Shown one piece after another: positions 986-32,527 of a stretch of DNA of 64,000 nucleotides. The notes under the pieces are model-generated. The model made no database searches. It was not told the origin of the DNA and saw only the letters and a program-made list of their open reading frames with translations. Each line of letters starts with the position of its first letter. The stretch's first letter is position 1. The stretch lies in the IMG/VR virus record IMGVR_UViG_3300002461_001191; one strand, 5' to 3'. This DNA comes from a virus. Lineage: Duplodnaviria; Heunggongvirae; Uroviricota; Caudoviricetes. The position numbers and the translations under genes are program-made.

Positions 986-1012
986 TACTTAGTTGACTTT
1001 TACAACTAAGTA
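986..1012. promoter_or_regulatory. palindromic operator TACTTAGTTGA-N5-ACAACTAAGTA overlapping the -35 box of the pncB promoter (TTGACT 993-998, N17, TATAAT 1016-1021)
   Basis: Perfect 10-bp inverted repeat; identical 27-mer recurs at 21900-21926 (upstream of pncA) and near-identical at 32502-32527 (upstream of nadE, minus strand). Confidence 0.65.
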
Positions 1013-4738: not shown

Positions 4739-5122
4739 ATGCAAGTAAAGTTACCTACAGAATATACCGCAAGTGATTATCATGAGTTCAATTTAACTCG
4801 TTTTATTTTGAATAAAGTGTTGGATAATGGAGCGGGTCTCAAAAAGATGTCTGTTGATTTTGTTGAGACAGGAGTTTGGGATAGAGATTATCATGCATTC
4901 TTTTATGATACAAGCAAAAAACCTACCAATAGAGATGTACTTGAGTTCTATATGGAATCACAAAAAGGACAATTTAAAACTACACAAGAATTGAAAAGTC
5001 ACTTTGAGTCAGGCTGGCTTAATCAAGAGTTCTTAACTGATTTAGATGATGTAATAAATCAATTCTCTGTTCAAGAGGGGTTTTTGAAAACATCAAAAAA
5101 ATCTCTTAAGATGAAAAAATAA
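4739..5122 (+). CDS. hypothetical protein
   Basis: 127 aa ORF with GGAG-like RBS, follows previous gene closely. Confidence 0.4.
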   Translation: MQVKLPTEYTASDYHEFNLTRFILNKVLDNGAGLKKMSVDFVETGVWDRDYHAFFYDTSKKPTNRDVLEFYMESQKGQFKTTQELKSHFESGWLNQEFLTDLDDVINQFSVQEGFLKTSKKSLKMKK

Positions 5123-5131
5123 GATTCAGTC

Positions 5132-5383
5132 TTAATCTAGAACTTCTACAGTAACACGAATTTTTTTACCAATAATACTTTTGATGGATTCGTGTTGTTC
5201 CCCAGCAAGGAGTTCTTGCATGCTTCTTCCATTGGATTTTTCTGTCCAACTTTGAATTCTGACAAAAACACTGTTATCACCTTCTACAGTTTTGAATTGA
5301 GGTTCTGCAATAACTGCTCGACCACCATCCTCGATGTTGATATCATCTTGATTGACGATTGCTTCCAAAATAATAACTGACAT
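5132..5383 (-). CDS. hypothetical small protein
   Basis: 83 aa ORF; no confident family assignment. Confidence 0.3.
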   Translation of the reverse strand: MSVIILEAIVNQDDINIEDGGRAVIAEPQFKTVEGDNSVFVRIQSWTEKSNGRSMQELLAGEQHESIKSIIGKKIRVTVEVLD

Positions 5384-5432
5384 GTTTTTCTCCTAAATAT
5401 ATAGGTTGATATTATATCTCTTTTTTTGTTAT

Positions 5433-5864
5433 TTAGTGATTTGTTTGCTCTGGATACCCAAATATACTTTCATATGAAAGTGCCCTATGATGACTTTTAT
5501 ATCTGTATTGATCAAAATAAGATTTAAACTCATCTTCATTCATGGTTTTAAATCTTAAGTCTTCATTGACTTGTATAAATGCTCCCAAACCATAATGTAT
5601 AATAAAAACATTACCAGGTTTTAGTGCAATTTTAGGCACAAAATAAGAATAATTTTCATATGTAAATTCATGATGATTTTCTAAAAGTGTTTGCTTTGCT
5701 TGTTCTAGAATTGGTGCGTCTTCTGGATGAACTCTAATCTTGGTTCTTGAACTTAAAATCATATGTTCAATTTTAGTCCAATCATTTTCATGAAATGCTT
5801 CAACTCTGGCTCCAAGAAAATAAGCTATTCTGTAAATAGTTGGTAGTTGATTTATGCTGTTCAT
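5433..5864 (-). CDS. hypothetical protein
   Basis: 143 aa ORF. Confidence 0.4.
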   Translation of the reverse strand: MNSINQLPTIYRIAYFLGARVEAFHENDWTKIEHMILSSRTKIRVHPEDAPILEQAKQTLLENHHEFTYENYSYFVPKIALKPGNVFIIHYGLGAFIQVNEDLRFKTMNEDEFKSYFDQYRYKSHHRALSYESIFGYPEQTNH

Positions 5865-6309: not shown

Positions 6310-6382
6310 AGGGGATTAGTGTAATTGGTTAGCACATCGTCCTTTGAAGTCGAGAGTCTAGGTTCAAGTCCTGGGTCCCCCG
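6310..6382 (+). tRNA. tRNA-Gln(UUG), type a (no encoded CCA; A1.C72 and one U.U in anticodon stem)
   Basis: Acceptor AGGGGAT/GTCCCCC; U8A9; D-stem GTGT/GCAC; anticodon loop CTTTGAA; T-arm CTAGG-TTCAAGT-CCTGG. Confidence 0.55.
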
Positions 6383-6415
6383 CAAAAAATAATGAAAGGA
6401 AATTTAAAAGTTTAT

Positions 6416-6490
6416 TGGGGATAAATCGATTGGAGCAGATACTTGGCTTTGAACCAAGGTGAGTGGGTTCGATTCCCACATCCCCTGCCA
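6416..6490 (+). tRNA. tRNA-Gln(UUG), type b copy 1 (CCA encoded; U1.U72)
   Basis: Acceptor TGGGGAT/ATCCCCT; anticodon stem CTTGG/CCAAG; loop CTTTGAA; T-arm GTGGG-TTCGATT-CCCAC; 75 nt. Confidence 0.7.
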
Positions 6491-6496
6491 AAAAAT

Positions 6497-6572
6497 GGAC
6501 TTGTAGCTCAGTTGGTAGAGCAGCAGACTGAAAATCTGTGTGTCGGCAGTTCGATTCTGCCCAAGTCCACCA
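6497..6572 (+). tRNA. tRNA-Phe(GAA), type a (canonical, CCA encoded)
   Basis: GGACTTG-TA-GCTC-AGTTGGTA-GAGC; anticodon loop CTGAAAA; GGCAG-TTCGATT-CTGCC; CAAGTCC-A-CCA; close to E. coli tRNA-Phe. Confidence 0.9.
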
Positions 6573-6606
6573 GTTAGTTTTAGTTGTTTAATAGGATAGG
6601 TTTAAT

Positions 6607-6684
6607 GCCGCCTTGGTGTAAATTGGTAGAGCACAAAAGACTGAAAATCTTTGGGTCTCGGTTCGATTCCGAGGGGCGGCACCA
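6607..6684 (+). tRNA. tRNA-Phe(GAA), type b (divergent body, CCA encoded)
   Basis: Acceptor GCCGCCT/GGGCGGC; anticodon stem AAAGA/TCTTT; loop CTGAAAA; T-arm CTCGG-TTCGATT-CCGAG. Confidence 0.75.
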
Positions 6685-6718
6685 GGTTGTTTTGTTGAAA
6701 TTATATATGTGTTTTTAT

Positions 6719-6793
6719 TGGGGGTAAATCGATTGGAGCAGATACTTGGCTTTGAACCAAGGTGAGTGGGTTCGATTCCCACACCCCCTGCCA
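6719..6793 (+). tRNA. tRNA-Gln(UUG), type b copy 2 (CCA encoded; U1.U72)
   Basis: Near-identical to 6416-6490; acceptor pair 6:67 changed A-T to G-C on both strands (compensatory), which confirms the register. Confidence 0.7.
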
Positions 6794-6840
6794 ATCTTAA
6801 AATTAAGTATACAGGTAAGTATATTTAATTTTAAGATTAT
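6794..6840. repeat. 18-bp inverted repeat (ATCTTAAAATTAAGTATA / TATATTTAATTTTAAGAT) with 8-nt loop, filling the whole spacer between two tRNAs
   Basis: Reverse-complement arms with one G.U position; begins 1 nt after the CCA of the upstream tRNA and ends 1 nt before the next tRNA. Confidence 0.6.
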
Positions 6841-6916
6841 GCTGTTTTAGCTGATGTGGTCATAGCGCGTGGTTGAAGCCCATGAGAAGTTGGTTCGATT
6901 CCAACAGGCAGCACCA
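6841..6916 (+). tRNA. tRNA-Phe(GAA)-like, type c (G37, two G.U in acceptor stem; CCA encoded)
   Basis: Acceptor GCTGTTT/AGGCAGC; D-stem GCTG/TAGC; anticodon stem CGTGG/CCATG; loop TTGAAGC; T-arm GTTGG-TTCGATT-CCAAC; 76 nt. Confidence 0.5.
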
Positions 6917-6923
6917 GATTATT

Positions 6924-6978
6924 GGGTCGGTTTGTGGTAAACCTAGGAATGCGAGTTCGAGTCTCGTCCGATCCACCA
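6924..6978 (+). other. tRNA-like minihelix: acceptor stem + T-arm + CCA but only 20 nt where D and anticodon arms should be (truncated tRNA or remnant)
   Basis: GGGTCGG ... GCGAG-TTCGAGT-CTCGT-CCGATCC-A-CCA; 55 nt. Confidence 0.35.
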
Positions 6979-7000
6979 GTTGTTTTTTTAAGGGGTTAAT

Positions 7001-7168
7001 ATGAGCAAGCTAGAGAAAAAGAAAGAAAAATTAAAACAAAGAATTGCTGATCTTGAGTTTGAAATGAGGAATATACTTCAGAAGAAATCTCAAGGTGCAG
7101 CTATTAATATTCAAAACTATAACTCAAAGATTATGGATTTGAAAAAAGAGTTGAGTTCCATGAATTAA
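7001..7168 (+). CDS. small coiled-coil protein (55 aa) embedded in the tRNA array
   Basis: ATG 7001 preceded by AAGGGG; MSKLEKKKEKLKQRIADLEFEMRNILQKKSQGAAINIQNYNSKIMDLKKELSSMN; below the length cutoff of the ORF track. Confidence 0.3.
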   Translation: MSKLEKKKEKLKQRIADLEFEMRNILQKKSQGAAINIQNYNSKIMDLKKELSSMN

Positions 7169-7178
7169 TTTTTACAGT

Positions 7179-7253
7179 TGGCGCATAGTGTAATGGTCAG
7201 CACAATTGACTTTGAATCAGTTGGTTCCAGTTCGAATCTGGATGCTCCTGCCA
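7179..7253 (+). tRNA. tRNA-Gln(UUG), type a copy 2 (CCA encoded; U1.U72 and C4.U69 mismatches)
   Basis: TGGCGCA-TA-GTGT-AATGGTCA-GCAC; anticodon stem ATTGA/TCAGT; loop CTTTGAA; TCCAG-TTCGAAT-CTGGA; TGCTCCT-G-CCA. Confidence 0.55.
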
Positions 7254-15996: not shown

Positions 15997-17973
15997 TTAA
16001 ATGAGGTAAAGAAATTTGTGAATATTTTCACTTATTTCTTTAGTTCTTGAGTTTATGTCATCAATAGTAAAAAAATCTTGTTTTTGACATATTAATTCTA
16101 TTTGTTTTAATTGGTGTTTTTGTTTTTCATAAACATATTGTTTTTTCTTGATAAAAGTATTATTTTTTGCCTCTTCATTTGAAGTATCATCAAGTAAAAT
16201 AAAGTTTCCAAGTTGATTTAATTCACTTTTATTTAATTCTTTATATTTAGGATTAATTTGTATTAATTTTTTCTGCACTAATGGAATAATATGTTCAATT
16301 TGAATATTTTCTTTAATAGTTTGTTTAAAAATTGCTTGTTTTAATTGGTTAAAATCAACTTGAGATAGTGATAATTCATATAAATATAGAATTCCTTTTC
16401 TAACTTGTAAAAAATTATACTCTTTCCATTTTTCGTATATTTTGGTTTCATCTATTGGATTAAAAAATAGTTTTGTGCTAATAAATTTGATTATATCGTT
16501 ATTGGTTTTAACCTCTTGTAATAAGTCTGGGAAAACAGATATATTCATAATATTGTTGTTTATATAGTTGTTGTTTGCTCCATTGTAAACACCCATAAAA
16601 TAAATTTTAATAATATCTTGTAGTAGTTTTATAAATTTATTTTTTTCTATTTGTTCATTATTTTTAGGGTATAGTTCTAATAAAACAGGAGTGTAAAGAT
16701 CTAATAAGTCTAAGTGATCTAATATATATAAATAGATAGATGCCTCATGAAAGGGATCAGTAAAACCTTTAATTTGTTTATATATTATTTCAAATTGCTC
16801 TAATTGTTTGTAGAAATTTAATGTTTCGTTATTACTCCAAACGGTAGGATTGAGAACTGAATTGTTAAGGAAAGAAGTAAGTTTTTCTATGCTTACTATT
16901 TTCTCGTTTTTGAAAATGCTTGTATTTGTTATTTTAAAAACAGACATAACATATCTATCAAGATTGTCTTCACCAAGATTTGTTTTCAATTGTTTAAAAA
17001 AATCATTAACTTTTTGACCATTATCTGTTCCGTCTTCTGCTAATATAAAGGTATTTTTAATTAAATCGATAGGCTTTAGTGTTTTCCCTGTATTATTTTT
17101 ATTTTGAAATATAATTGATGGATTAATTTTTGAACTAAATACTTCTATAGTAATAAGAGTATTAAAAAAACTATCTATAACGTTACTAAAATCTTTTAAA
17201 GATTCCTTTGAAATGTACAATTTATGGTTGTAATCATATACTATGTTTAATTTTTTATGAAAAAAATGAAATATACAAACTAAAGCTTCTAGTGTATGTT
17301 TAAAAGATTGTATATCTTTTTTAATATCCTTATTTTTATAATATAATATATTTAGTATTTCTGTATATGTTTGTTTCTTGTTTTTATTTTGACATAATAT
17401 ATTAAATATGTTTTCTCTGTTTTTTATGAGAGAGCAATAAAATTCATTATATTGAGTTGAGTTTATAAATTTAAGCTTTGATACTTCTTCACCGTTTTTG
17501 TTGTTAACTAAAACATTATTTAAAGAGTTTAGTTTTATGTGTTCTTGTTTAAATTTAGAGTAAATCTCTTTTTTCCTTTTATCAATTGATAATGTTAAGG
17601 TCTTCTCAAAATTTTCTTCATTTAAAGATATTGTTTTTTGAAATAGAACCTCTAAAAATAGTGCTATCAAGCTCAATGTTGTTGTTCTTTGTTGTCCATC
17701 CATTATAGAAACTAAATTTTCTTTAACTGGTTGTAAGATTAGACTGCCAATTTCTGCATTAATGTATTCATTAGAAAAGTCATTTGATAAGTTCACATTA
17801 AAAATAGTGTCTAAAAGTTTATGAACATGCTTATGTTCCCATTCATACTCTCTTTGGTAGTACTGCATAACAAATTCTGGATTTTCTAAAGAAAATGCTT
17901 CTCCTGTCATGTAGTCTTTAATTTTCCTGACTTCAGCTTGTTTAATGTTTTTTTCATCTGTTAAAGATAGCAT
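15997..17973 (-). CDS. GmrSD-family type IV restriction endonuclease (DUF262 + DUF1524)
   Basis: N-terminal DUF262 with DGQQRTTTL motif; C-terminal His-Me finger IEHIIPL ... GNFILLDDTSNEEAKN. Confidence 0.75.
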   Translation of the reverse strand: MLSLTDEKNIKQAEVRKIKDYMTGEAFSLENPEFVMQYYQREYEWEHKHVHKLLDTIFNVNLSNDFSNEYINAEIGSLILQPVKENLVSIMDGQQRTTTLSLIALFLEVLFQKTISLNEENFEKTLTLSIDKRKKEIYSKFKQEHIKLNSLNNVLVNNKNGEEVSKLKFINSTQYNEFYCSLIKNRENIFNILCQNKNKKQTYTEILNILYYKNKDIKKDIQSFKHTLEALVCIFHFFHKKLNIVYDYNHKLYISKESLKDFSNVIDSFFNTLITIEVFSSKINPSIIFQNKNNTGKTLKPIDLIKNTFILAEDGTDNGQKVNDFFKQLKTNLGEDNLDRYVMSVFKITNTSIFKNEKIVSIEKLTSFLNNSVLNPTVWSNNETLNFYKQLEQFEIIYKQIKGFTDPFHEASIYLYILDHLDLLDLYTPVLLELYPKNNEQIEKNKFIKLLQDIIKIYFMGVYNGANNNYINNNIMNISVFPDLLQEVKTNNDIIKFISTKLFFNPIDETKIYEKWKEYNFLQVRKGILYLYELSLSQVDFNQLKQAIFKQTIKENIQIEHIIPLVQKKLIQINPKYKELNKSELNQLGNFILLDDTSNEEAKNNTFIKKKQYVYEKQKHQLKQIELICQKQDFFTIDDINSRTKEISENIHKFLYLI

Positions 17974-21899: not shown

Positions 21900-21926
21900 T
21901 ACTTAGTTGACTTTTACAACTAAGTA
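21900..21926. promoter_or_regulatory. NAD-gene operator copy 2, inside pncA promoter (TTGACT 21907-21912)
   Basis: 27-mer identical to 986-1012. Confidence 0.65.
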
Positions 21927-21959
21927 TGGCATAATTAAATCATATTAAAGGAGAACACT

Positions 21960-22757
21960 ATGAAAAACGCTTTACTACTTATTGACTTCCAAAACGACTT
22001 TATTGACGCACCATCTTTTCGAGGTGCATTGGCTGTGAGTGGTGCTTATCAGGATGTGTTGAGAACTGTGCAATACATCAAGAGCAATCAAATTGATGAT
22101 ATTTTTGTCACTGTAGATACTCACAGTGTCATGGATATTGCTCATGCTTCATGGTGGGTTGATAAAGAGGGTAAGCACCCAAGTCCATTTACTCTTATCA
22201 CTGTGGATGATGTTGTGAGTGGTAAGTGGATGACAGCAGATCCTAAAGAGCAGGAGTGGAGTTTGTTTTATGTCAAAGAATTGGCAAAGAACAACAAATA
22301 TACTTTGTGTGTTTGGCCAGATCATTGCATTAAGGGGTCTTATGGTTGGGATATTGCTCCAGAAATTAAAGAAGCATTGAAAGATTGGGAGTTGAGTACT
22401 GGAAAGTCTGTCAACTATGTGTACAAGGGCATGAACCCAAGGACTGAGCACTACTCTGGTTTTAAGGCTGAAGTCTTGGTTGAGTCAGACGCTGGAACTG
22501 AATTGAACATGGATTTGATCAAGTCTTTAATGAAGTATGATAGGGTCAGTGTTGCAGGAGAGGCTTTGTCTCATTGTGTTGCGTCTTCAGTGACTGATTT
22601 GCTGGAAAATATTTCTGACAAATCAAAAGTCACAATCTTGAAAGATTGCATGAGCAGTGTTACAGGCTTTGAAGCTAACGGAGAGAAGTTCTTGGATTGG
22701 GCAAAGTCTCAAGGTGCAGTTCTTGAAACTGTAGGTAAAATGAAATTAAAAATGTAA
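21960..22757 (+). CDS. pncA: nicotinamidase (isochorismatase family, Pnc1/PncA type)
   Basis: LLLIDFQNDFI, metal/active-site region VDTHS, WPDHCIKGSYG, C-terminal Cys region SHCVASS. Confidence 0.7.
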   Translation: MKNALLLIDFQNDFIDAPSFRGALAVSGAYQDVLRTVQYIKSNQIDDIFVTVDTHSVMDIAHASWWVDKEGKHPSPFTLITVDDVVSGKWMTADPKEQEWSLFYVKELAKNNKYTLCVWPDHCIKGSYGWDIAPEIKEALKDWELSTGKSVNYVYKGMNPRTEHYSGFKAEVLVESDAGTELNMDLIKSLMKYDRVSVAGEALSHCVASSVTDLLENISDKSKVTILKDCMSSVTGFEANGEKFLDWAKSQGAVLETVGKMKLKM

Positions 22758-22862
22758 TTCTATATTTCATGAAATATAAGAGATCCCTGTGGATGAAAAT
22801 TCATGGGGATTTTTGTTTTATTTTTTCGTTTTGATATAATAAGTAATAAAGGAATTTTAAAA

Positions 22863-23441
22863 ATGGAAAACTTCATACTTCAAGAGCATAAAAGTGATAA
22901 ATACGGTCCCAGAACATATCATAATGCCAACTCTGCGGATTTGACTGTTGCCTTTGCTGTTGATTTGCATACTGCGGGTGAGGTTTTGACACACAAAGCA
23001 GCAGGAGATAGATATATAGGTTTTCAGTTGACAGATGAGACAACTTCTCTTGAATTGGCTAGACAACTTTATAGAAAAATGAAGTCCATGAATGCAAAAA
23101 GTTTGAACATAGCAGGCAATGGGATATACACACTATCAAAACACAATTGCTCTCAACAATTTATCAACGAATTTGTTTATGATGTTTTATCCAGAGTTCA
23201 TGAGCATTTACCTATAGAGAAAATTGTCTCTGGGGGTCAAACAGGTGTAGATATAGCAGGTGCTGTAGCAGCAAAGAAGCTCAATATTCCTGCTGTAATT
23301 ACATTTCCTAAAGGTTTTATGCAAAGATTTGAAGATAAAAGAGATATATTTCAAACAAAAGAAGCAGTAGAAGAACAAATAAATTATTGGGTGAATGCTC
23401 TTGTGCCTAGTAATGAAAGAAAAGCTAAAAATACAATTTAA
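22863..23441 (+). CDS. SLOG-superfamily protein (YpsA / molybdenum-cofactor-carrier-like)
   Basis: SGGQTGVDIAGAVAAKKLNIPAVITFPKGF matches GGQTGxD ... CPKG signature of MoCo-carrier/YpsA clade; start re-set to Met 21 of the ORF-track ORF. Confidence 0.45.
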   Translation: MENFILQEHKSDKYGPRTYHNANSADLTVAFAVDLHTAGEVLTHKAAGDRYIGFQLTDETTSLELARQLYRKMKSMNAKSLNIAGNGIYTLSKHNCSQQFINEFVYDVLSRVHEHLPIEKIVSGGQTGVDIAGAVAAKKLNIPAVITFPKGFMQRFEDKRDIFQTKEAVEEQINYWVNALVPSNERKAKNTI

Positions 23442-26213: not shown

Positions 26214-28211
26214 TCAAGGTCTCATTTTAGGCTTATTCTCAAGAGTTTCATGGGGTTCTGTCTCTCTTTGATGAACTAAATCTTTATTTTTCTTTAAATA
26301 AACAAGTAAAATTCCAAGAGCAGAGGGTGTCACTCCAGCAATTCTAGATGCTTGTCCAATGGTCTCAGGCTTGAACTGATTGAGCTTTTGTTTGGTCTCT
26401 GTACTCAATGAAGTAATTTCATTGTAATCAAAGTTTTGTGGTAATTTTGTATTTTCAGATTTACTCATCCTTTGAACTTCATCTGCTTGTCTATCAATAT
26501 AGCCAGCATATTTAAATCCAATTTGAACTTGATCAGTAATCTGTTGTGCAAGCTCAGCACCATACTTTTCAGAAATGGATTGATAAGATACTTCTTGTAG
26601 AACATCTTTTTTAGAGTGCTCTAAAACTTTTTCTATGGTTGAATAATCTACTCCAGGTCTTTTGATGAGATCTGCCAAATTAACTTCTTTAAGAAGTGGT
26701 GATCCGAGTATGCCAATAGCTGCCTCATCTTTAAAAATATTGGGATTAACCCAAGTATCTTTCATTTTTTGTTTATAGATTTCAACTGCTTCTTGTTTTT
26801 CGTTAAATAGTTTCCATCTTTCATCACTGACAAGCCCCAATTCTCTACCAATTGGTGTGAGTCTTTGGTCTGCATTGTCTTCTCTGAGAGAGAGTCTATA
26901 CTCTGATCTACTTGTAAACATTCTATAAGGCTCATTGAGTTCTTTTGTGGTCAAATCATCAACCATAACTCCAATATAAGAGTTGCTTCTTTGGAATATG
27001 AAAGGCTCTAGTCCTTTTGCTCTGAGTGCAGCATTGATACCAGCACAAAGACCTTGACCTTGTGCTTCTTCATATCCTGTAGAACCAAGAATTTGTGAAG
27101 CACAGAAAAGATTTTGGATAACCTTGCTCTCTAATGATCGGCTAAAAGATGATGGCAAGTAGTAGTCATACTCAATGGCATAACCTGGTCTTAATATATA
27201 GGCGTTTTCAAGTCCCTTTATACTTCTGACTGCTTTGAGTTGAACATCAAAAGGCAAAGAAGTTGAAATTCCGTTTGGATAATACTCATTGGTTGTAAGA
27301 CCTTCAGGCTCAAGATAGACTTGATGACTGTCTCTGTCTGCAAAGCGAGTGATTTTATCTTCAATGCTTGGGCAATATCTGGGTCCGGGGCCGTCAAATT
27401 TATTCAAAATAAATCCAGAGCGGTCAAATCCAGATCTAAAGATTTCATGAGTTGTCTCATTTGTCTTTGTAATCCAGCATGGAACTTGTGATGGGTGCAT
27501 TGATTTGCTACCCATGAAACTCATGACAGGCAAATTGCCATCAAGTGCTCCATCACCGTCTTGTCTTTCCATTTTGCTGAAATCAATGGTTCTGCCATCA
27601 ATTCTAGGTGGTGTACCAGTTTTAAGTCTACCTGTAGGAACAAGCTCTTTCATTCTTTGAGCAAGACTTATTGAAGCTGGGTCTCCTGCTCTGCCTGCTG
27701 TATGTGTCTCAAGACCAATATGAACTTTACCATTTTGAAAAGTGCCAGTAGTCAAAACTACAGTTTTTGATTTGAAACGAATACCTGATTGTGTCACAAC
27801 ACCGCAAACGCTATCACCATTCATGATGACATCATCAACTGCTTGCTGAAAAACTTGTAGATTTTCTTGATTTTCCACTTGTTTTCTAATGGAAGCTTTA
27901 TACAGGATTCTATCAACTTGTGCTCTTGTTGCTTGAACGGCTGGGCCTTTGGAAGCGTTGAGTATTCTGAATTGTATGCCAGATTCATCAGTTGCGATTG
28001 CTGAAGCACCACCAAGAGCGTCAACCTCTTTCATCAGGTGCCCTTTACCAATACCACCCATAGATGGGTTACAGCTTAGTTGTCCAATGGTTTCTATATT
28101 GTGTGTAACAAGAAGTGTTTTGCAGCCCATTCTAGCTGCTGCCAATGCTGCTTCAGTACCACCATGTCCACCGCCTACAACGATCACATCATAAAATTCT
28201 GGATAGTCCAT
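26214..28211 (-). CDS. mnmG: tRNA uridine-5-carboxymethylaminomethyl synthesis enzyme MnmG (GidA)
   Basis: FAD motif [14 protein letters not shown]; collinear MnmG signature throughout; C-terminal extension (665 aa). Confidence 0.9.
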
Positions 28212-28359: not shown

Positions 28360-29010
28360 ATGATGATAATACAGTCATTTCAACCTCAATCTGTGCTAGA
28401 TGATATCAATAAAAACGGTTTGGCATTTTCAAAACCAGATTTTTCTATTTGGGATGGTGAAATCATTAACCCAGATTTAATTTGGGGGTTTAGGCATTCA
28501 TATGAGTGGATGGTTCAACAGATGAATAGAAGTGTAGAGAATAACACATTTGCTAAATTTCCATTCTGGGGTTGGGCTTGGTCTGGAGACAACGATCAAA
28601 AATATATAGATTTATCATTACATAAAGAGTATTCGGGAGAATACTTAATAACAATGGAGTTGGATGAAAAAGATTTATTTTTTAGTGATTTTCAATTATG
28701 GCACTATGTTTTGAACTATTGGCCAATAGTGTCTTCAGAAGAAGAAAGAATTTTCTTTGAGGCATTGGAGAAAGACAAAAAAAACAATTATTATGATAAT
28801 AAACCGTTGAAAGATATTGTTTATGATTTAAAGATAAGAAACACTTGGAATAAGATTTTTTCTTTAAGGAAAAGTGGTGATTTTTTTATCAGTTCTTTAA
28901 GTGAAAAAGAGATTGAGTACTTAGAAATGAGTCCTGAAGAAAAAATAGTGACTCAATCTTGTTTTTGGAATATTGAGAAAAAAAATATATTAAAGGTTGA
29001 AAAAATATGA
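28360..29010 (+). CDS. hypothetical protein, translationally coupled to ATP-grasp gene
   Basis: 216 aa; stop overlaps next start (ATGA). Confidence 0.4.
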   Translation: MMIIQSFQPQSVLDDINKNGLAFSKPDFSIWDGEIINPDLIWGFRHSYEWMVQQMNRSVENNTFAKFPFWGWAWSGDNDQKYIDLSLHKEYSGEYLITMELDEKDLFFSDFQLWHYVLNYWPIVSSEEERIFFEALEKDKKNNYYDNKPLKDIVYDLKIRNTWNKIFSLRKSGDFFISSLSEKEIEYLEMSPEEKIVTQSCFWNIEKKNILKVEKI

Positions 29011-29918
29011 GAGTAAAGTGGTTAATTCAGTCTAATGGAGTTACTAGAAAACCTTTGGAAGAAGAGTTTTTTGCAAAAAATCTTCAAATGTTTGATTTTG
29101 CAATGATTCCATTCACACATAAAATCATTAATCTGGACACTATTTTTTTAGATTTTTTAACAAATAAAGATGTCTCCTATGTTCTAAAGGGTGGTACAAG
29201 AATATTGGATATTTTAAAAGATGACGGGTTTGTAGAAGAAAATAAAAAAATCTTATTGGAACATGCTTCTGAGGAATATGTTGATTTATTTTTTAATAGA
29301 TTTAAAGCTGGGTTGTTTTATGATTTAGACAAGTTTGATCAAGCACATTATTCCTCTATTGGATTGCCTATGCTCAATCAAAGTCCATTTGTTGGGTATT
29401 TTCACGATGTAAAAGCCATTGTTTTTGAAAAAGACATGTTTGTGAAGCCCACATCTGATGGAAAGAGTTTTGCTGGTAAGATTCTACCCAAAGGGCAAAG
29501 TTTGGAAGATTTGCTAAAAACCATCATGTATCAAGAAAAGGTTAGTAAAGAGACTATCATGTTCTCTGAGATTAAAAATGTTCTTCATGAGTTCAGGTTT
29601 TTCATTATCAATGATGAGGTTGTCACTGGTAGTCAATACATGCAAGATCATAGGGTTGTTGTAAGAAATTTGTCAGATTCAGAGTTGGATAAAAAAGCAC
29701 TTGAGGTGGCTCAAGATTATGCTTTGCTGTATAAGCCAAGTGATGTGTTTACTCTAGATATATGTCTTGAGAGTAGTGGAAGATGGAGTATTGTGGAGTA
29801 TAACTGTTTTAATTGTTCAGGTCTTTATGCTGCTGACTTGATGAAGCTGACTCAATCAATGGAGAATTTTTTAATCAAAAAAACAACAAATTTAAAAATT
29901 AAATCATCCTTTACTTAA
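29007..29918 (+). CDS. ATP-grasp-like protein (paralog of C-terminal domain of 10407-12686)
   Basis: EFRFFIINDEVVTGS ... FTLDICLESSGRWSIVEYNCFNCSGLY. Confidence 0.5.
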   Translation: MRVKWLIQSNGVTRKPLEEEFFAKNLQMFDFAMIPFTHKIINLDTIFLDFLTNKDVSYVLKGGTRILDILKDDGFVEENKKILLEHASEEYVDLFFNRFKAGLFYDLDKFDQAHYSSIGLPMLNQSPFVGYFHDVKAIVFEKDMFVKPTSDGKSFAGKILPKGQSLEDLLKTIMYQEKVSKETIMFSEIKNVLHEFRFFIINDEVVTGSQYMQDHRVVVRNLSDSELDKKALEVAQDYALLYKPSDVFTLDICLESSGRWSIVEYNCFNCSGLYAADLMKLTQSMENFLIKKTTNLKIKSSFT

Positions 29919-29959: not shown

Positions 29960-30292
29960 ATGAATACAGAAAAAATTGTTTCCTTCTTGCGTGGTATTTC
30001 TCACTTGAGTGAGATTAATGTAAAACCCAATAAAGACTTTAAACACAAGTTTGTTGATTTGACTGGTCAAATGAACTGGGTTGTTGTGGATGATAGTAAG
30101 GTTGCTATTGATTCTCATGCAAGAATTATTTTTGATTTGTCTGAAAAAGAAGACAGATTGGAATTACTCAGCGCTCTTGCATATCAGAAATATAAATCAG
30201 ACCAATATGACTTGATTGTAGCAGAAAACGAAAAGTTTGTGCTTGAACATTTTAAAGGTGATGATATCAGTGGTTATTTCTTTGACGCCTGA
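29960..30292 (+). CDS. hypothetical protein
   Basis: 110 aa ORF. Confidence 0.35.
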   Translation: MNTEKIVSFLRGISHLSEINVKPNKDFKHKFVDLTGQMNWVVVDDSKVAIDSHARIIFDLSEKEDRLELLSALAYQKYKSDQYDLIVAENEKFVLEHFKGDDISGYFFDA

Positions 30293-30831
30293 TATTTTGT
30301 TTTTTGCTCAATGATTGCTGTGATTGTTTTCTTCTTCAGTAGAAGGTCAATCAACAAAGATCCTGAAATGAATACAATATTTTGATGTTCTTTTACAATG
30401 TTTTTTGATCGCTCACCAGTTTTGCCAGTGTGGGCAAAAACTCCGTAATAGTATTTGCCATCTTTTACCTTTTGTGCCAAATCTAAAACATCTTTATTGT
30501 TGATGTAGTTCTTATATCTTTTGCATTGAATCAACACTTTGCCTTGTTTTATTTTGAATTTTCCGTCTATACCTCCGTCATTGGAGTATGATTTGTTCCT
30601 TATAATATGGACATTGGTATCTTGTATAACATTGAGGATGAGTTCTTCAAAAACAAAAGGATTTATTTTTTTTAAGTAGTTTATGCTCTTGGGATAGCCA
30701 TATTCTTGAGAACTTATTTCAACTATTTTTTTCAAAACTTCTTTGGCTTTTCTGATTCTATACAAATGAACCCATTTGCCCAAGAGTCTGAACCTGTTGA
30801 TTATAATTGACCAAATTTTTATCCAATTCAT
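30274..30831 (-). CDS. restriction-endonuclease-like protein (Mrr_cat domain only)
   Basis: SNDGGIDGKFKIKQGKVLIQCKRYKNY matches Mrr catalytic core D-x-GIDG ... QCK. Confidence 0.55.
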   Translation of the reverse strand: MNWIKIWSIIINRFRLLGKWVHLYRIRKAKEVLKKIVEISSQEYGYPKSINYLKKINPFVFEELILNVIQDTNVHIIRNKSYSNDGGIDGKFKIKQGKVLIQCKRYKNYINNKDVLDLAQKVKDGKYYYGVFAHTGKTGERSKNIVKEHQNIVFISGSLLIDLLLKKKTITAIIEQKTKYQASKK

Positions 30832-31578: not shown

Positions 31579-32448
31579 TTAACTCTCTTTGAAACCAGGA
31601 ATTGGTGATCTTTTGAATCTTGTTACATCAAAGTGGTTGATGATTTTCTCTTCAACTTCCTCTGGAATGGCAATACCTTCTAGGAAGTCATCCATGTAGT
31701 CGTAGTTGAAGCCAAAGCCTTCATCATCAAGTTTTCCAGGGTTGAGTTCTTCTAAGTCTGCTGTAGGTGGTTTTTTCCACAAAGCTTCTGAAGCACCCAA
31801 TTCTTTGGCAACCAGTCTAATTTGTCTTTTGCTCAAACCGTTAAGCACTGTCACATCACATGCTTCATCGCCAAATCTTGTGTAGAAAGCCATCACATAT
31901 TCTGCATTGTGGTCTGTTCCAACAACAACACCTTCAAACATCGCAGCAATTTGGTATTGTACAAGCATGCGGATTCTGGCTTTCATATTGCCTTTGTTGA
32001 AATCAACTTGGGACTCTGTAATTTCACCTCCCACACGTCTGAACTCCATCACACCTTGAATGCTGAGGTTGTTGGCTGCTTCACCAATATTGACTGTCAT
32101 TGACTTGTCAGGTTGAATAAATTTCAGTGCTTCTTGTGCAGATGATTCATCTAGTTGAACACCTGCTGGAAGTCTAACAGCAACGAATTGTGCAAAATAA
32201 CCTTCTGCTCTGAGTTCTTCACAGGCAATCTGACACAATTTGCCTGTAGTACTTGAATCAACTCCACCACTGATCCCAAGAACAAAAGCTTTTCTACCAG
32301 AATTTTTCAAAAATCTCTTCAAGTGATCAACGCGTTTCCTGATAGCTTCCTTGGGGTTGAAAAGTGCTGTTGATACAACTGCATTGCCTGCCAAAATTTC
32401 TGCTTTGATTTCTTGATATCTGCTGCTTGATTTTGTGATTCTGGTCAT
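31579..32448 (-). CDS. nadE: NH3-dependent NAD+ synthetase
   Basis: PP-loop GISGGVDSS; collinear NadE similarity. Confidence 0.9.
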   Translation of the reverse strand: MTRITKSSSRYQEIKAEILAGNAVVSTALFNPKEAIRKRVDHLKRFLKNSGRKAFVLGISGGVDSSTTGKLCQIACEELRAEGYFAQFVAVRLPAGVQLDESSAQEALKFIQPDKSMTVNIGEAANNLSIQGVMEFRRVGGEITESQVDFNKGNMKARIRMLVQYQIAAMFEGVVVGTDHNAEYVMAFYTRFGDEACDVTVLNGLSKRQIRLVAKELGASEALWKKPPTADLEELNPGKLDDEGFGFNYDYMDDFLEGIAIPEEVEEKIINHFDVTRFKRSPIPGFKES

Positions 32449-32501: not shown

Positions 32502-32527
32502 TACTTAGTTGAAAAAGTCAACTAAGT
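32502..32527. promoter_or_regulatory. NAD-gene operator copy 3 (ACTTAGTTGA-aaaag-TCAACTAAGT) in nadE promoter on minus strand
   Basis: On minus strand reads ACTTAGTTGACTTTTTCAACTAAGT with TTGACT -35 and ATAATA -10; 54 nt upstream of nadE ATG. Confidence 0.65.

What the first reader, a model, noticed from the sequence alone, without database searches (positions are those of the whole stretch)
21900..23441. SLOG/YpsA-like (MoCo-carrier-type) protein co-transcribed with pncA under the NAD operator
The gene 105 nt downstream of the pncA stop (22863-23441) carries the GGQTGVD ... FPKG signature of the YpsA/MoCo-carrier clade of the SLOG superfamily, whose members have been predicted computationally to bind or process nucleotide (ADP-ribose or NAD-derived) ligands. 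Its position in a pncA operon behind the NAD operator suggests a role in nicotinamide-nucleotide turnover, for example releasing nicotinamide from NMN or another nucleotide to feed PncA and then PncB. That would be an uncharacterised salvage step.
Basis: inference. Interest (0 to 1): 0.55.

Follow-up and report, generated by a model that had tools for sequence, protein, structure and literature searches.

The report
Phage-type SLOG gene beside nicotinamidase gene
The gene after the nicotinamidase gene is a real SLOG (cpYpsA-type) protein, but it has its own promoter behind a terminator and belongs to a phage and plasmid family tied to ADP-ribose processing, so a new NAD salvage step is not supported.

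Summary
The sequence observation holds. ORF 22863-23441 (192 aa) is a cpYpsA/SLOG protein, 105 nt after a nicotinamidase-like gene that sits behind a real NAD-regulon operator.

The operon reading does not hold.
- A hairpin plus U-tract terminator lies between the two genes, followed by an extended -10 promoter. The same layout, with different stem sequences, occurs in both relatives that keep the pair.
- The operator precedes the nicotinamidase-like gene in all nine lineages examined. The SLOG gene follows it in only three, which group together in a nicotinamidase tree of six of them.
- None of about 180 other loci with a homologue has PncA, PncB or NadE nearby.

The family is mainly a mobile-element one: Vibrio phage ICP1 gp146, crAss-like phage giant proteins and Pseudomonas megaplasmids. 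It is repeatedly fused to NADAR and DUF4326, or sits beside an ADP-ribosyltransferase domain in giant proteins. This matches the published computational prediction that viral YpsA-like SLOG domains process ADP-ribose derivatives.

Verdict: a new member of a known but biochemically untested family. It is positionally linked to pncA through one ancestral event. A nicotinamide-releasing salvage role is possible but unlikely.

The parts
21901..21925 (.). NAD-regulon operator, a 25-nt palindrome ACTTAGTTGACTTTTACAACTAAGT. It overlaps the -35 hexamer and spacer of the pncA-like promoter.
   Evidence: Three copies in the window against 0.09 expected. Conserved about 60 nt upstream of the pncA-like gene in eight other lineages.
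21907..21935 (+). Sigma-70-type promoter of the pncA-like gene: TTGACT, 17-nt spacer, TG-CATAAT.
   Evidence: Best promoter match in the region, 10 of 12 with the TG extension.
21960..22757 (+). Nicotinamidase-like gene (265 aa, divergent PncA clade).
   Evidence: PF00857 31.6 bits; NF008623 50 bits, below its cut-off of 174. The best solved-structure matches are all nicotinamidases and the catalytic and metal-binding motifs are kept.
22779..22829 (+). Intrinsic-terminator-like hairpin (22779-22814) followed by a T-rich tract.
   Evidence: Terminator scan hit with 16 pairs; centroid -19.6 kcal/mol. Hairpins at the same position but with different sequence in L175 (-26.5 kcal/mol, z -4.5) and L173 (-17 kcal/mol, z -4.0).
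22832..22840 (+). Extended -10 promoter element TGATATAAT for the SLOG gene.
   Evidence: Read from the sequence. L175 has TGGTATAAT at the same place. L173 has TTGACT-16-TAAAAT.
22863..23441 (+). Stand-alone cpYpsA-type SLOG protein, 192 aa.
987..1011 (.). Second copy of the operator, upstream of pncB (1052-2242).
32503..32527 (.). Third copy of the operator, upstream of nadE (31579-32448, minus strand).

Best explanation
ORF 22863-23441 is a stand-alone member of a highly conserved, circularly permuted YpsA-type SLOG family whose main home is mobile DNA: large phages, giant polyvalent proteins and megaplasmids. In this AT-rich proteobacterium it landed once, in an ancestor of a small clade, just downstream of the NAD-operator-controlled nicotinamidase gene. 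It is a separate transcription unit. The pncA-like transcript ends at a hairpin plus U-tract terminator, and the SLOG gene has its own extended -10 promoter with no operator (shown from sequence; transcription itself is inferred). By inference, the protein binds an ADP-ribose-containing or other NAD-derived nucleotide in the pocket formed by the GGQTGxD loop, the NxAGNG loop, the TAGE motif and the Y-x2-RT-x2-N helix. It then most likely cleaves a ribosyl N-glycosidic bond in the way LOG enzymes do. In other genomes it works in the same pathway as NADAR and DUF4326, to which it is repeatedly fused. Any link to PncA would be indirect: both would handle products of NAD cleavage, nicotinamide in one case and the ADP-ribose moiety in the other. 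It would not be a dedicated step feeding PncA.
For: Family: Pfam and PHROG hits; a confident SLOG-like Rossmannoid model whose only strong solved match is 3imk. Conservation typical of an enzyme: 50-85% identity across bacteria and phages, with 30 invariant, mostly polar or glycine residues that fall at strand ends and helix starts. Mobile-element home: 146 relatives in IMG/VR; 84 GenBank phage records including ICP1 gp146; 111 plasmid records, 107 of them Pseudomonas; crAss-like phage giant proteins; 18 of 101 dereplicated loci carry the domain inside ORFs of 1000 aa or more. ADP-ribose link: 10 of 31 mid-size members are fused to DUF4326 and 8 to NADAR, in both orders and as triple fusions. 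Giant proteins carry it next to ART-PolyVal or DUF4326. NADAR or DUF4326 genes lie nearby in several phage loci. The published prediction is the same (PMC9503650). Separate transcription: terminator and promoter in three lineages with non-identical stems. No regulon membership: the operator precedes the pncA-like gene in nine lineages, but the SLOG gene follows it in only three. Those three group together in a nicotinamidase tree of six of the lineages.
Against: No member of this family has been tested biochemically, so both ligand and chemistry are inferred. Terminators can leak, so some read-through from the NAD-regulated promoter is not excluded. The pair has survived to 57-61% protein identity while its downstream flank changed (L173; its upstream flank is cut off by the contig end), which is some evidence for selection on adjacency. 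The window protein has no fusion partner, and no NADAR or DUF4326 gene was found in the 64-kb window. The commonest phage neighbours are DNA ligases, helicases and phosphoesterases, which also fit a nucleic-acid-directed role.
Confidence: 0.55

Rival explanations
1. The SLOG protein is an N-glycosidase that releases nicotinamide from NMN, NR or NAD (for example an NMN nucleosidase). It is expressed with PncA by read-through from the NAD-regulated promoter and feeds PncA, PncB and NadE.
For: Same-strand adjacency 77-105 nt after an operator-controlled nicotinamidase gene in three lineages, down to 57-61% identity and with a changed downstream flank. LOG-type SLOG enzymes hydrolyse nucleoside 5'-monophosphates to base plus ribose 5-phosphate (established knowledge, also summarised in PMC9503650). 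A branch of YpsA proper has been reported in scattered association with NAD salvage genes (PMC6459960).
Against: Terminator and own promoter in all three lineages. No operator at its own promoter. Absent after the pncA-like gene in six other lineages that keep the operator. No PncA, PncB or NadE within 6-8 kb at about 180 other loci. One origin for the pair. The family's fusion partners are NADAR, DUF4326 and ART domains, not salvage enzymes. No LOG-family Pfam hit and no PGGxGTxxE motif. A phage has no obvious use for an enzyme that destroys NMN or NAD.
Confidence: 0.12
2. The protein is a non-catalytic binder of an NAD-derived signal such as a cyclic ADP-ribose isomer. It would act as a sponge or sensor, as the ThsA SLOG domain senses 3'cADPR and as Tad1 and Tad2 sequester it.
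For: SLOG domains include pure sensors (PMC9503650). It is a small stand-alone protein encoded among early or replication genes in phages. It is carried inside giant phage and mobile-element proteins, including crAss-like phage ones.
Against: Invariant acidic and polar residues (E40, D130, R17, R155, N21, Q126) are more typical of catalysis. Repeated fusion to the hydrolase-type domains NADAR and DUF4326 suggests consecutive steps of one pathway. Chromosomal copies occur without an effector partner. No PADLOC match.
Confidence: 0.15
3. The protein acts on nucleic acids, either removing ADP-ribose or another ribosyl adduct from DNA or RNA, or binding DNA as DprA does. It would work with helicases and ligases in phage replication, repair or counter-restriction.
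For: Stop/start overlap with Dda-like helicase HelA in ICP1-type phages. ATP-dependent DNA ligase is the commonest immediate neighbour. RNA ligase, PNKP phosphatase, metallophosphoesterases and dCMP deaminase also lie nearby. DprA is a SLOG relative. A DNA ligase (ORF55) and another SLOG protein (ORF83) both counter Avs3 (bioRxiv 10.1101/2025.06.06.658234).
Against: These neighbours are generic for phage replication modules, and none occurs in more than about 10% of dereplicated loci. No DprA-type hit. The relation to ORF83 was not tested.
Confidence: 0.12

Closest known systems
Pfam PF12694 cpYpsA (formerly 'putative molybdenum carrier'); PDB 3imk from Syntrophus aciditrophicus
   Different: The segments come in the opposite order. 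Profile positions 44-125 come first and 1-36 second, so this family is circularly permuted relative to the Pfam model and 3imk. 3imk itself has no known function.
Viral YpsA-like SLOG domains described by Iyer, Burroughs, Anantharaman and Aravind 2022 (PMC9503650)
   Same: Same habitat (large phages, polyvalent proteins) and same fusion partners (NADAR, DUF4326). The published prediction is that they process ADP-ribose derivatives at ribosyl N-glycosidic bonds.
   Different: Here the gene is a chromosomal, stand-alone copy next to a nicotinamidase gene. The papers read here do not mention nicotinamidase or PncA. The prediction is computational only.
Vibrio phage ICP1 gp146 and PHROG phrog_10774
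   Same: About 50% identity over 88% of the protein; same length class.
   Different: The phage copy overlaps the stop codon of the accessory helicase gene helA. No function is annotated and no paper on it was found.
Bacillus subtilis YpsA (YpsA proper, PDB 2NX2)
   Same: Same SLOG clade with a GxD/E substrate-binding signature. The literature links the clade to NAD and ADP-ribose, and one branch shows scattered NAD-salvage associations (PMC6459960).
   Different: No Pfam YpsA hit. Different order of structural elements. YpsA is a cell-division inhibitor of Firmicutes next to gpsB. 2NX2 did not appear among the structural matches.
LOG phosphoribohydrolases (PF03641) and related nucleotide 5'-monophosphate nucleosidases
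   Same: Same superfamily.
   Different: No PF03641 hit, no PGGxGTxxE motif, and no LOG structure among the top matches.
Phage anti-Avs3 protein ORF83 (SLOG / DprA-like)
   Same: A small phage SLOG protein with demonstrated anti-defence activity. Its homologues in amoeba viruses are fused to DUF4326.
   Different: Its best structural matches are LOG proteins and DprA rather than 3imk. I did not obtain the sequence, so the relationship is untested.

Membership tests
PF12694 cpYpsA (SLOG superfamily) | Score above the Pfam gathering threshold | tested here: met
   46.9 bits against a cut-off of 26.2, E 3e-12.
PF12694 cpYpsA (SLOG superfamily) | GGQTGxD glycine-rich loop after a beta-strand, and the LNIAG strand | tested here: met
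   G124 G125 Q126 T127 G128 D130 and N82 A84 G85 N86 G87 are invariant in 38 sequences. They align to the same motifs of 3imk.
PF12694 cpYpsA (SLOG superfamily) | Rossmannoid three-layer alpha/beta fold like 3imk | tested here: met
PF12694 cpYpsA (SLOG superfamily) | Same linear order of elements as the Pfam model | tested here: not met
   Residues 3-86 match profile 42-125, and residues 116-150 match 3imk residues 7-41. Fusion proteins show the same reversed order. This is a further circular permutant.
PF12694 cpYpsA (SLOG superfamily) | Binding or processing of a nucleotide ligand | not testable with these tools
   No biochemical data exist for any member. The inference rests only on fusions.
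pncA operon / NAD regulon of this organism | Operator ACTTAGTTG-N7-CAACTAAGT at the gene's own promoter | tested here: not met
   The only operator copies in the window are at 987, 21901 and 32503. None lies between 22758 and 22862.
pncA operon / NAD regulon of this organism | No terminator between the promoter-proximal gene and this gene | tested here: not met
   Hairpin plus U-tract in the window, L175 and L173. This is sequence prediction only; read-through was not measured.
pncA operon / NAD regulon of this organism | Conserved synteny with NAD genes across lineages | tested here: not met
   The pair occurs in three of nine pncA-like lineages, and these three group together in a tree of six of them. 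No NAD salvage gene lies near any of about 180 other homologue loci.
ADP-ribose-processing set SLOG + NADAR + DUF4326 (Iyer et al. 2022) | Fusion or adjacency of the same SLOG family with NADAR, DUF4326, Macro or ART domains | tested here: met
   For the family: 18 of 31 mid-size members are fused to NADAR or DUF4326, and ART-PolyVal or DUF4326 occurs in the giant proteins. For the window copy: it stands alone, and no NADAR or DUF4326 gene was found in the window.
LOG phosphoribohydrolase (PF03641) | PF03641 match and PGGxGTxxE motif | tested here: not met
   No PF03641 hit at E up to 0.1. The motif is absent from the alignment.
Nicotinamidase PncA (upstream gene 21960-22757) | Catalytic Asp-Lys-Cys triad plus metal-binding DxH and WPxHC motifs | tested here: met
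   IDFQNDF, DTH, WPDHC, YKG and SHCV are present and align to nicotinamidases 29iv and 3pl1.
Nicotinamidase PncA (upstream gene 21960-22757) | NCBIfam equivalog NF008623 cut-off | tested here: not met
   50.1 bits against a cut-off of 174. This is a divergent 265-aa clade, so the enzyme activity is inferred.

The most novel reading that the evidence does not exclude
In this small clade a phage-derived cpYpsA N-glycosidase has been domesticated for pyridine recycling. It would cleave the nicotinamide-ribosyl bond of NMN, NR or an NAD breakdown product, supplying nicotinamide to the adjacent PncA. To my recollection, NMN nucleosidase is an activity that still has no assigned gene. Low-level coupling to the NAD regulon would come from terminator read-through.
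Probability: 0.08. Interest if true: 0.7.

Novelty: new member of a known kind. Interest (0 to 1): 0.3.

Why it matters
The specific claim of an uncharacterised NAD salvage step in a pncA operon would have been interesting, but it is not supported. What remains is a well-conserved and widespread family with no tested biochemistry. It holds 424 clusters at 50% identity with E below 1e-30. It occurs in the model phage ICP1, in crAss-like phage giant proteins and in large Pseudomonas megaplasmids. Its repeated fusion to NADAR and DUF4326 makes it a good target for assays with ADP-ribose-derived immune signals. The chromosomal copy next to a nicotinamidase gene adds one modest clue: the two products of NAD cleavage may be handled side by side.

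Tried and rejected
It returned only distant SLOG relatives, so it says little about close homologues in isolate genomes.
3. PADLOC gave no match for the SLOG protein, its conserved neighbours in the closest clade, or the window neighbours.
4. BLAST clustering and Pfam counts of neighbours found no dominant partner. The top families were resolvase (11 of 101 loci), DNA ligase (8) and metallophosphoesterases.
5. I looked for the regulator of the operator among ten small ORFs and with a Nudix-box regular expression, and found nothing.
6. Burroughs et al. 2015, which defined the SLOG clades, is not in the held library.
7. The ORF83 sequence is not in the supplements, so its relation to this family is untested.
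8. I considered that the pncA-like gene and the SLOG gene were acquired together from a phage, because of a weak phrog_19305 hit. I rejected this because the pncA-like gene with its operator is resident in nine lineages.
9. Organism: the best named MnmG relatives are Burkholderiales at only about 64% identity, so the taxon stays unresolved beyond an AT-rich (32% GC) proteobacterium.
Full report
**1. What is at the coordinates**

The + strand carries three features in a row.
- A sigma-70-type promoter at 21907-21935: TTGACT, a 17-nt spacer, then TG-CATAAT.
- A 265-aa ORF at 21960-22757.
- After a 105-nt gap, a 192-aa ORF at 22863-23441.

The mechanical ORF list extends the second ORF back to 22803. 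That start lies inside a hairpin. All 37 aligned homologues begin within a few residues of the ATG at 22863, which has an AAGGA ribosome-binding site 8 nt upstream.

**2. Family of the 192-aa protein**

- It matches Pfam PF12694 (cpYpsA, formerly 'putative molybdenum carrier') at 46.9 bits against a gathering score of 26.2.
- It matches phage family phrog_10774 at E 4e-62.
- It has no NCBIfam model and no PADLOC match.
- An AlphaFold model built on 38 homologues is confident: pLDDT 93.8, pTM 0.90. It shows alternating strands and helices.

The family is unusually conserved. Identity is 50-85% across very different sources, and 30 positions are invariant: Y14, R17, T18, N21, A22, T28, A30, A32, T37, G39, E40, T43, N82, A84, G85, N86, G87, T90, Q98, N102, G124, G125, Q126, T127, G128, D130, G133, T147, P149 and R155. 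In the model these residues sit at strand ends and helix starts, which is where Rossmannoid folds bind their ligand (the pocket is an inference).

One structural detail stands out. Relative to the Pfam model and 3imk, the two halves are swapped. Residues 3-86 match profile positions 42-125. Residues 116-150, which hold the GGQTGxD strand and loop, match the N-terminus of 3imk. The family is therefore a further circular permutant within the YpsA clade.

**3. The upstream gene and the operator**

The 265-aa protein is a divergent isochorismatase-fold protein.
- PF00857 scores 31.6 bits. The nicotinamidase equivalog NF008623 scores only 50 bits against a cut-off of 174.
- Its only solved relatives are nicotinamidases: 29iv, Mycobacterium tuberculosis PncA 3pl1, 9u8m and yeast Pnc1 2h0r.
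- It keeps IDxQNDF, DxH, WPxHC, YKG and SHCV, which are the catalytic Asp-Lys-Cys triad and the metal ligands.

Calling it pncA is reasonable.

The palindrome ACTTAGTTG-N7-CAACTAAGT occurs three times in the window, where 0.09 matches are expected by chance. One copy overlaps the -35 hexamer of the pncA-like promoter. One lies 41 nt upstream of pncB (1052-2242; NAPRTase, 570 bits). One lies upstream of nadE (31579-32448, minus strand; 315 bits). It is also present about 60 nt upstream of the pncA-like gene in eight other low-GC lineages. So there is a genuine NAD salvage regulon. I did not find its regulator.

**4. Is the SLOG gene co-transcribed with pncA?**

The gap contains a 16-pair hairpin at 22779-22814 followed by TTTTTGTTTTATTTTTT. 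This is the only convincing terminator-like site in 3.2 kb, with a centroid energy of -19.6 kcal/mol. Just after it comes TGATATAAT at 22832-22840, a perfect extended -10 element, and then the ribosome-binding site.

Two relatives keep the gene pair.
- L174/L175 share 91% (PncA-like) and 85% (SLOG) identity with the window.
- L173 shares 57% and 61%.

Both have a hairpin plus U-tract at the same place, but with different stem sequences.
- L175: ATCCCCATG...CATGGGGAT followed by T5GT5, -26.5 kcal/mol, z -4.5.
- L173: GCCTCGAT-CAAA-ATCGGGGC followed by TTTTGACTTTT, z -4.0.

Each is followed by a promoter-like element: TGGTATAAT in L175, and TTGACT-16-TAAAAT in L173. A terminator conserved by position but not by sequence, plus a promoter with no operator, argues for two transcription units. 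Read-through cannot be excluded from sequence alone.

**5. Is the synteny conserved?**

I collected 184 loci with homologues of the SLOG protein. The sources were public assemblies, IMG/VR, JGI metagenomes and GTDB genomes.
- A PncA-like gene lies within the fetched flanks only in the window's own species, its 85% sister, and L173.
- No locus outside the window's own species and its 85% sister has PncB or NadE.

Going the other way, six further lineages carry the same pncA-like gene at 51-57% identity, each with the operator. In all six a different gene follows it. In one of them a SLOG homologue from the same sample lies on a different contig.

In a tree of six of the PncA-like proteins, the three pair-bearing lineages form one group. 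One insertion event therefore explains the adjacency. The one point in its favour is that the pair has survived to about 60% identity while the downstream flank changed; the upstream flank of L173 is cut off by the contig end.

**6. Where the family really lives**

- IMG/VR holds 146 relatives. Most are on contigs of 40-290 kb.
- GenBank phages hold 84 records. These include all ICP1 isolates, where gp146 overlaps the stop codon of the accessory helicase gene helA. They also include other Vibrio phages, where the gene sits behind a Dda-like helicase. Bacteroides, Pseudomonas and Burkholderia phages are also represented.
- PLSDB holds 111 plasmid records. Of these, 107 are Pseudomonas, most of those listed being 250-500 kb plasmids.
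- After dereplication (101 groups), 77 copies are stand-alone, 6 are mid-size, and 18 sit inside ORFs of 1000-3500 aa.
- The best viral structure matches are segments of giant proteins of crAss-like phages.
- An exhaustive profile search found 2,702 representative proteins at E up to 0.001, and 424 at E up to 1e-30. Many of these are 2,500-4,800 aa long.

**7. What the fusions say**

Of 31 mid-size members (260-700 aa), 10 carry DUF4326 and 8 carry NADAR. The architectures are NADAR-SLOG, SLOG-NADAR, SLOG-DUF4326, DUF4326-SLOG-NADAR and SLOG-DUF4326-NADAR. That spread points to independent fusions.

Giant proteins place the domain after DUF4326 (Azonexus locus L004) or after the ADP-ribosyltransferase domain ART-PolyVal (L131). 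Separate NADAR or DUF4326 genes lie nearby in several phages.

Gene neighbours are otherwise varied: resolvase, ATP-dependent DNA ligase, metallophosphoesterases, dCMP deaminase, a YfbR-like nucleotidase, RNA ligase and PNKP phosphatase. None dominates, and none is an NAD salvage enzyme.

**8. Comparison with the literature**

- Iyer et al. 2022 (PMC9503650) state that viral SLOG domains belong mainly to the YpsA-like clade. They are enriched in large phages and are fused to or next to Macro, NADAR and DUF4326. The authors predict that they counter host immunity by acting on ribosyl N-glycosidic bonds of cADPR-type molecules or other ADP-ribose derivatives.
- Brzozowski et al. 2019 (PMC6459960) note the suggested NAD/ADP-ribose link of the YpsA clade. 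They also describe a branch of YpsA proper with scattered NAD-salvage associations.
- A 2025 preprint describes another phage SLOG protein, ORF83, as an anti-Avs3 protein with DUF4326-fused homologues. It predicts phosphoribohydrolase activity for it. I could not test its relation to the present family.
- I found no experimental work on this family or on ICP1 gp146.

**9. Most likely mechanism**

Shown: family membership, fold, conservation, mobile-element distribution, fusion partners, the operator regulon, and the terminator and promoter anatomy.

Inferred: the protein binds an ADP-ribose-containing or NAD-derived nucleotide in the pocket lined by its invariant residues, and most likely hydrolyses a ribosyl N-glycosidic bond, in the same pathway as NADAR and DUF4326. 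In phages and polyvalent proteins this would serve counter-defence. The chromosomal copy here is an independently transcribed gene that arrived once, next to pncA.

If there is a functional tie, it is probably that both genes deal with the products of NAD cleavage.

I give this combined account 0.55.

**10. Verdict**

This is a new member of a known but biochemically untested kind. Interest is moderate to low (0.3). The value lies less in this locus than in the family, which is a clean target for biochemical assays.

Noticed in passing
window 987-1011, 21901-21925, 32503-32527; also L173:105, L175:1052, L256:3937, L257:3943, L259:3749, L262:2936, L264:2947, L265:2942: A conserved 25-nt palindromic operator, ACTTAGTTG-N7-CAACTAAGT, overlaps the -35 region of pncB, the pncA-like gene and nadE. 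It precedes the pncA-like gene in nine low-GC lineages. The regulator was not identified, and from memory the motif does not obviously match known NadR, NiaR or NrtR sites (not tested).
   Followed up: partly
window 22863-23441: The family is circularly permuted relative to the Pfam PF12694 model and PDB 3imk. The half carrying GGQTGxD comes last instead of first. This makes three different starting points on the same ring of elements within the YpsA clade; the comparison with YpsA proper is from memory.
   Followed up: partly
proteins P0381, P0390, P0386, P0398, P0397, P0404, P0522; loci L004:6204-12584, L131:5223-15695: Fusions of exactly this SLOG family with NADAR and DUF4326 occur in every order. 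The domain is also embedded in 1,400-4,800-aa phage and mobile-element proteins, next to ART-PolyVal or DUF4326.
   Followed up: yes
L171 (Vibrio phage ICP1, 6001-6540), L260 (vB_CoeS_P1, 5001-5540): In ICP1-type Vibrio phages the gene (gp146) overlaps by 4 nt the stop codon of the Dda-like accessory helicase gene helA, which suggests translational coupling. No published function was found.
   Followed up: partly
L261 (P. aeruginosa plasmid pR31014-IMP, 6629-7549) and 106 other Pseudomonas plasmid records: A 52%-identical copy, within a 306-aa annotated protein, is carried by a family of large Pseudomonas plasmids, most of those listed being 250-500 kb and many from clinical isolates.
   Followed up: no
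phage and metagenome loci, e.g. L250:4743-5993, L118, L119, L110: An ATP-dependent DNA ligase is the commonest gene immediately upstream of the SLOG gene. The literature reports a phage DNA ligase (ORF55) and a different SLOG protein (ORF83) as the two anti-Avs3 proteins. This may be coincidence, or it may be a lead.
   Followed up: no
L085:6570-8931, L087:6625-10205, L091:8575-11957, L188: In the closest bacterial-type clade the SLOG gene heads a conserved run of three genes (about 360, 380 and 375-430 aa) with no Pfam or PADLOC match. An RNA ligase lies a few genes further on in at least two of these loci.
   Followed up: partly
window 6310-7253: Seven tandem tRNA genes: four tRNA-Gln(ttg) and three tRNA-Phe(gaa), largely alternating, within 950 nt.
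   Followed up: no
window 15997-17973, 28360-29918, 30274-30831: Defence-like genes are scattered around the locus: GmrSD (a type IV restriction enzyme), a DUF3841 plus R2K ATP-grasp pair, and an Mrr_cat nuclease. Most ORFs from 18 to 26 kb are orphans with no family match.
   Followed up: no
window 26214-28211: The best named relatives of MnmG are Burkholderiales, at only about 64% identity. Together with 32% GC, ankyrin-repeat genes and many orphan ORFs, this suggests a deep-branching and possibly host-associated proteobacterium from drinking-water or activated-carbon metagenomes.
   Followed up: partly
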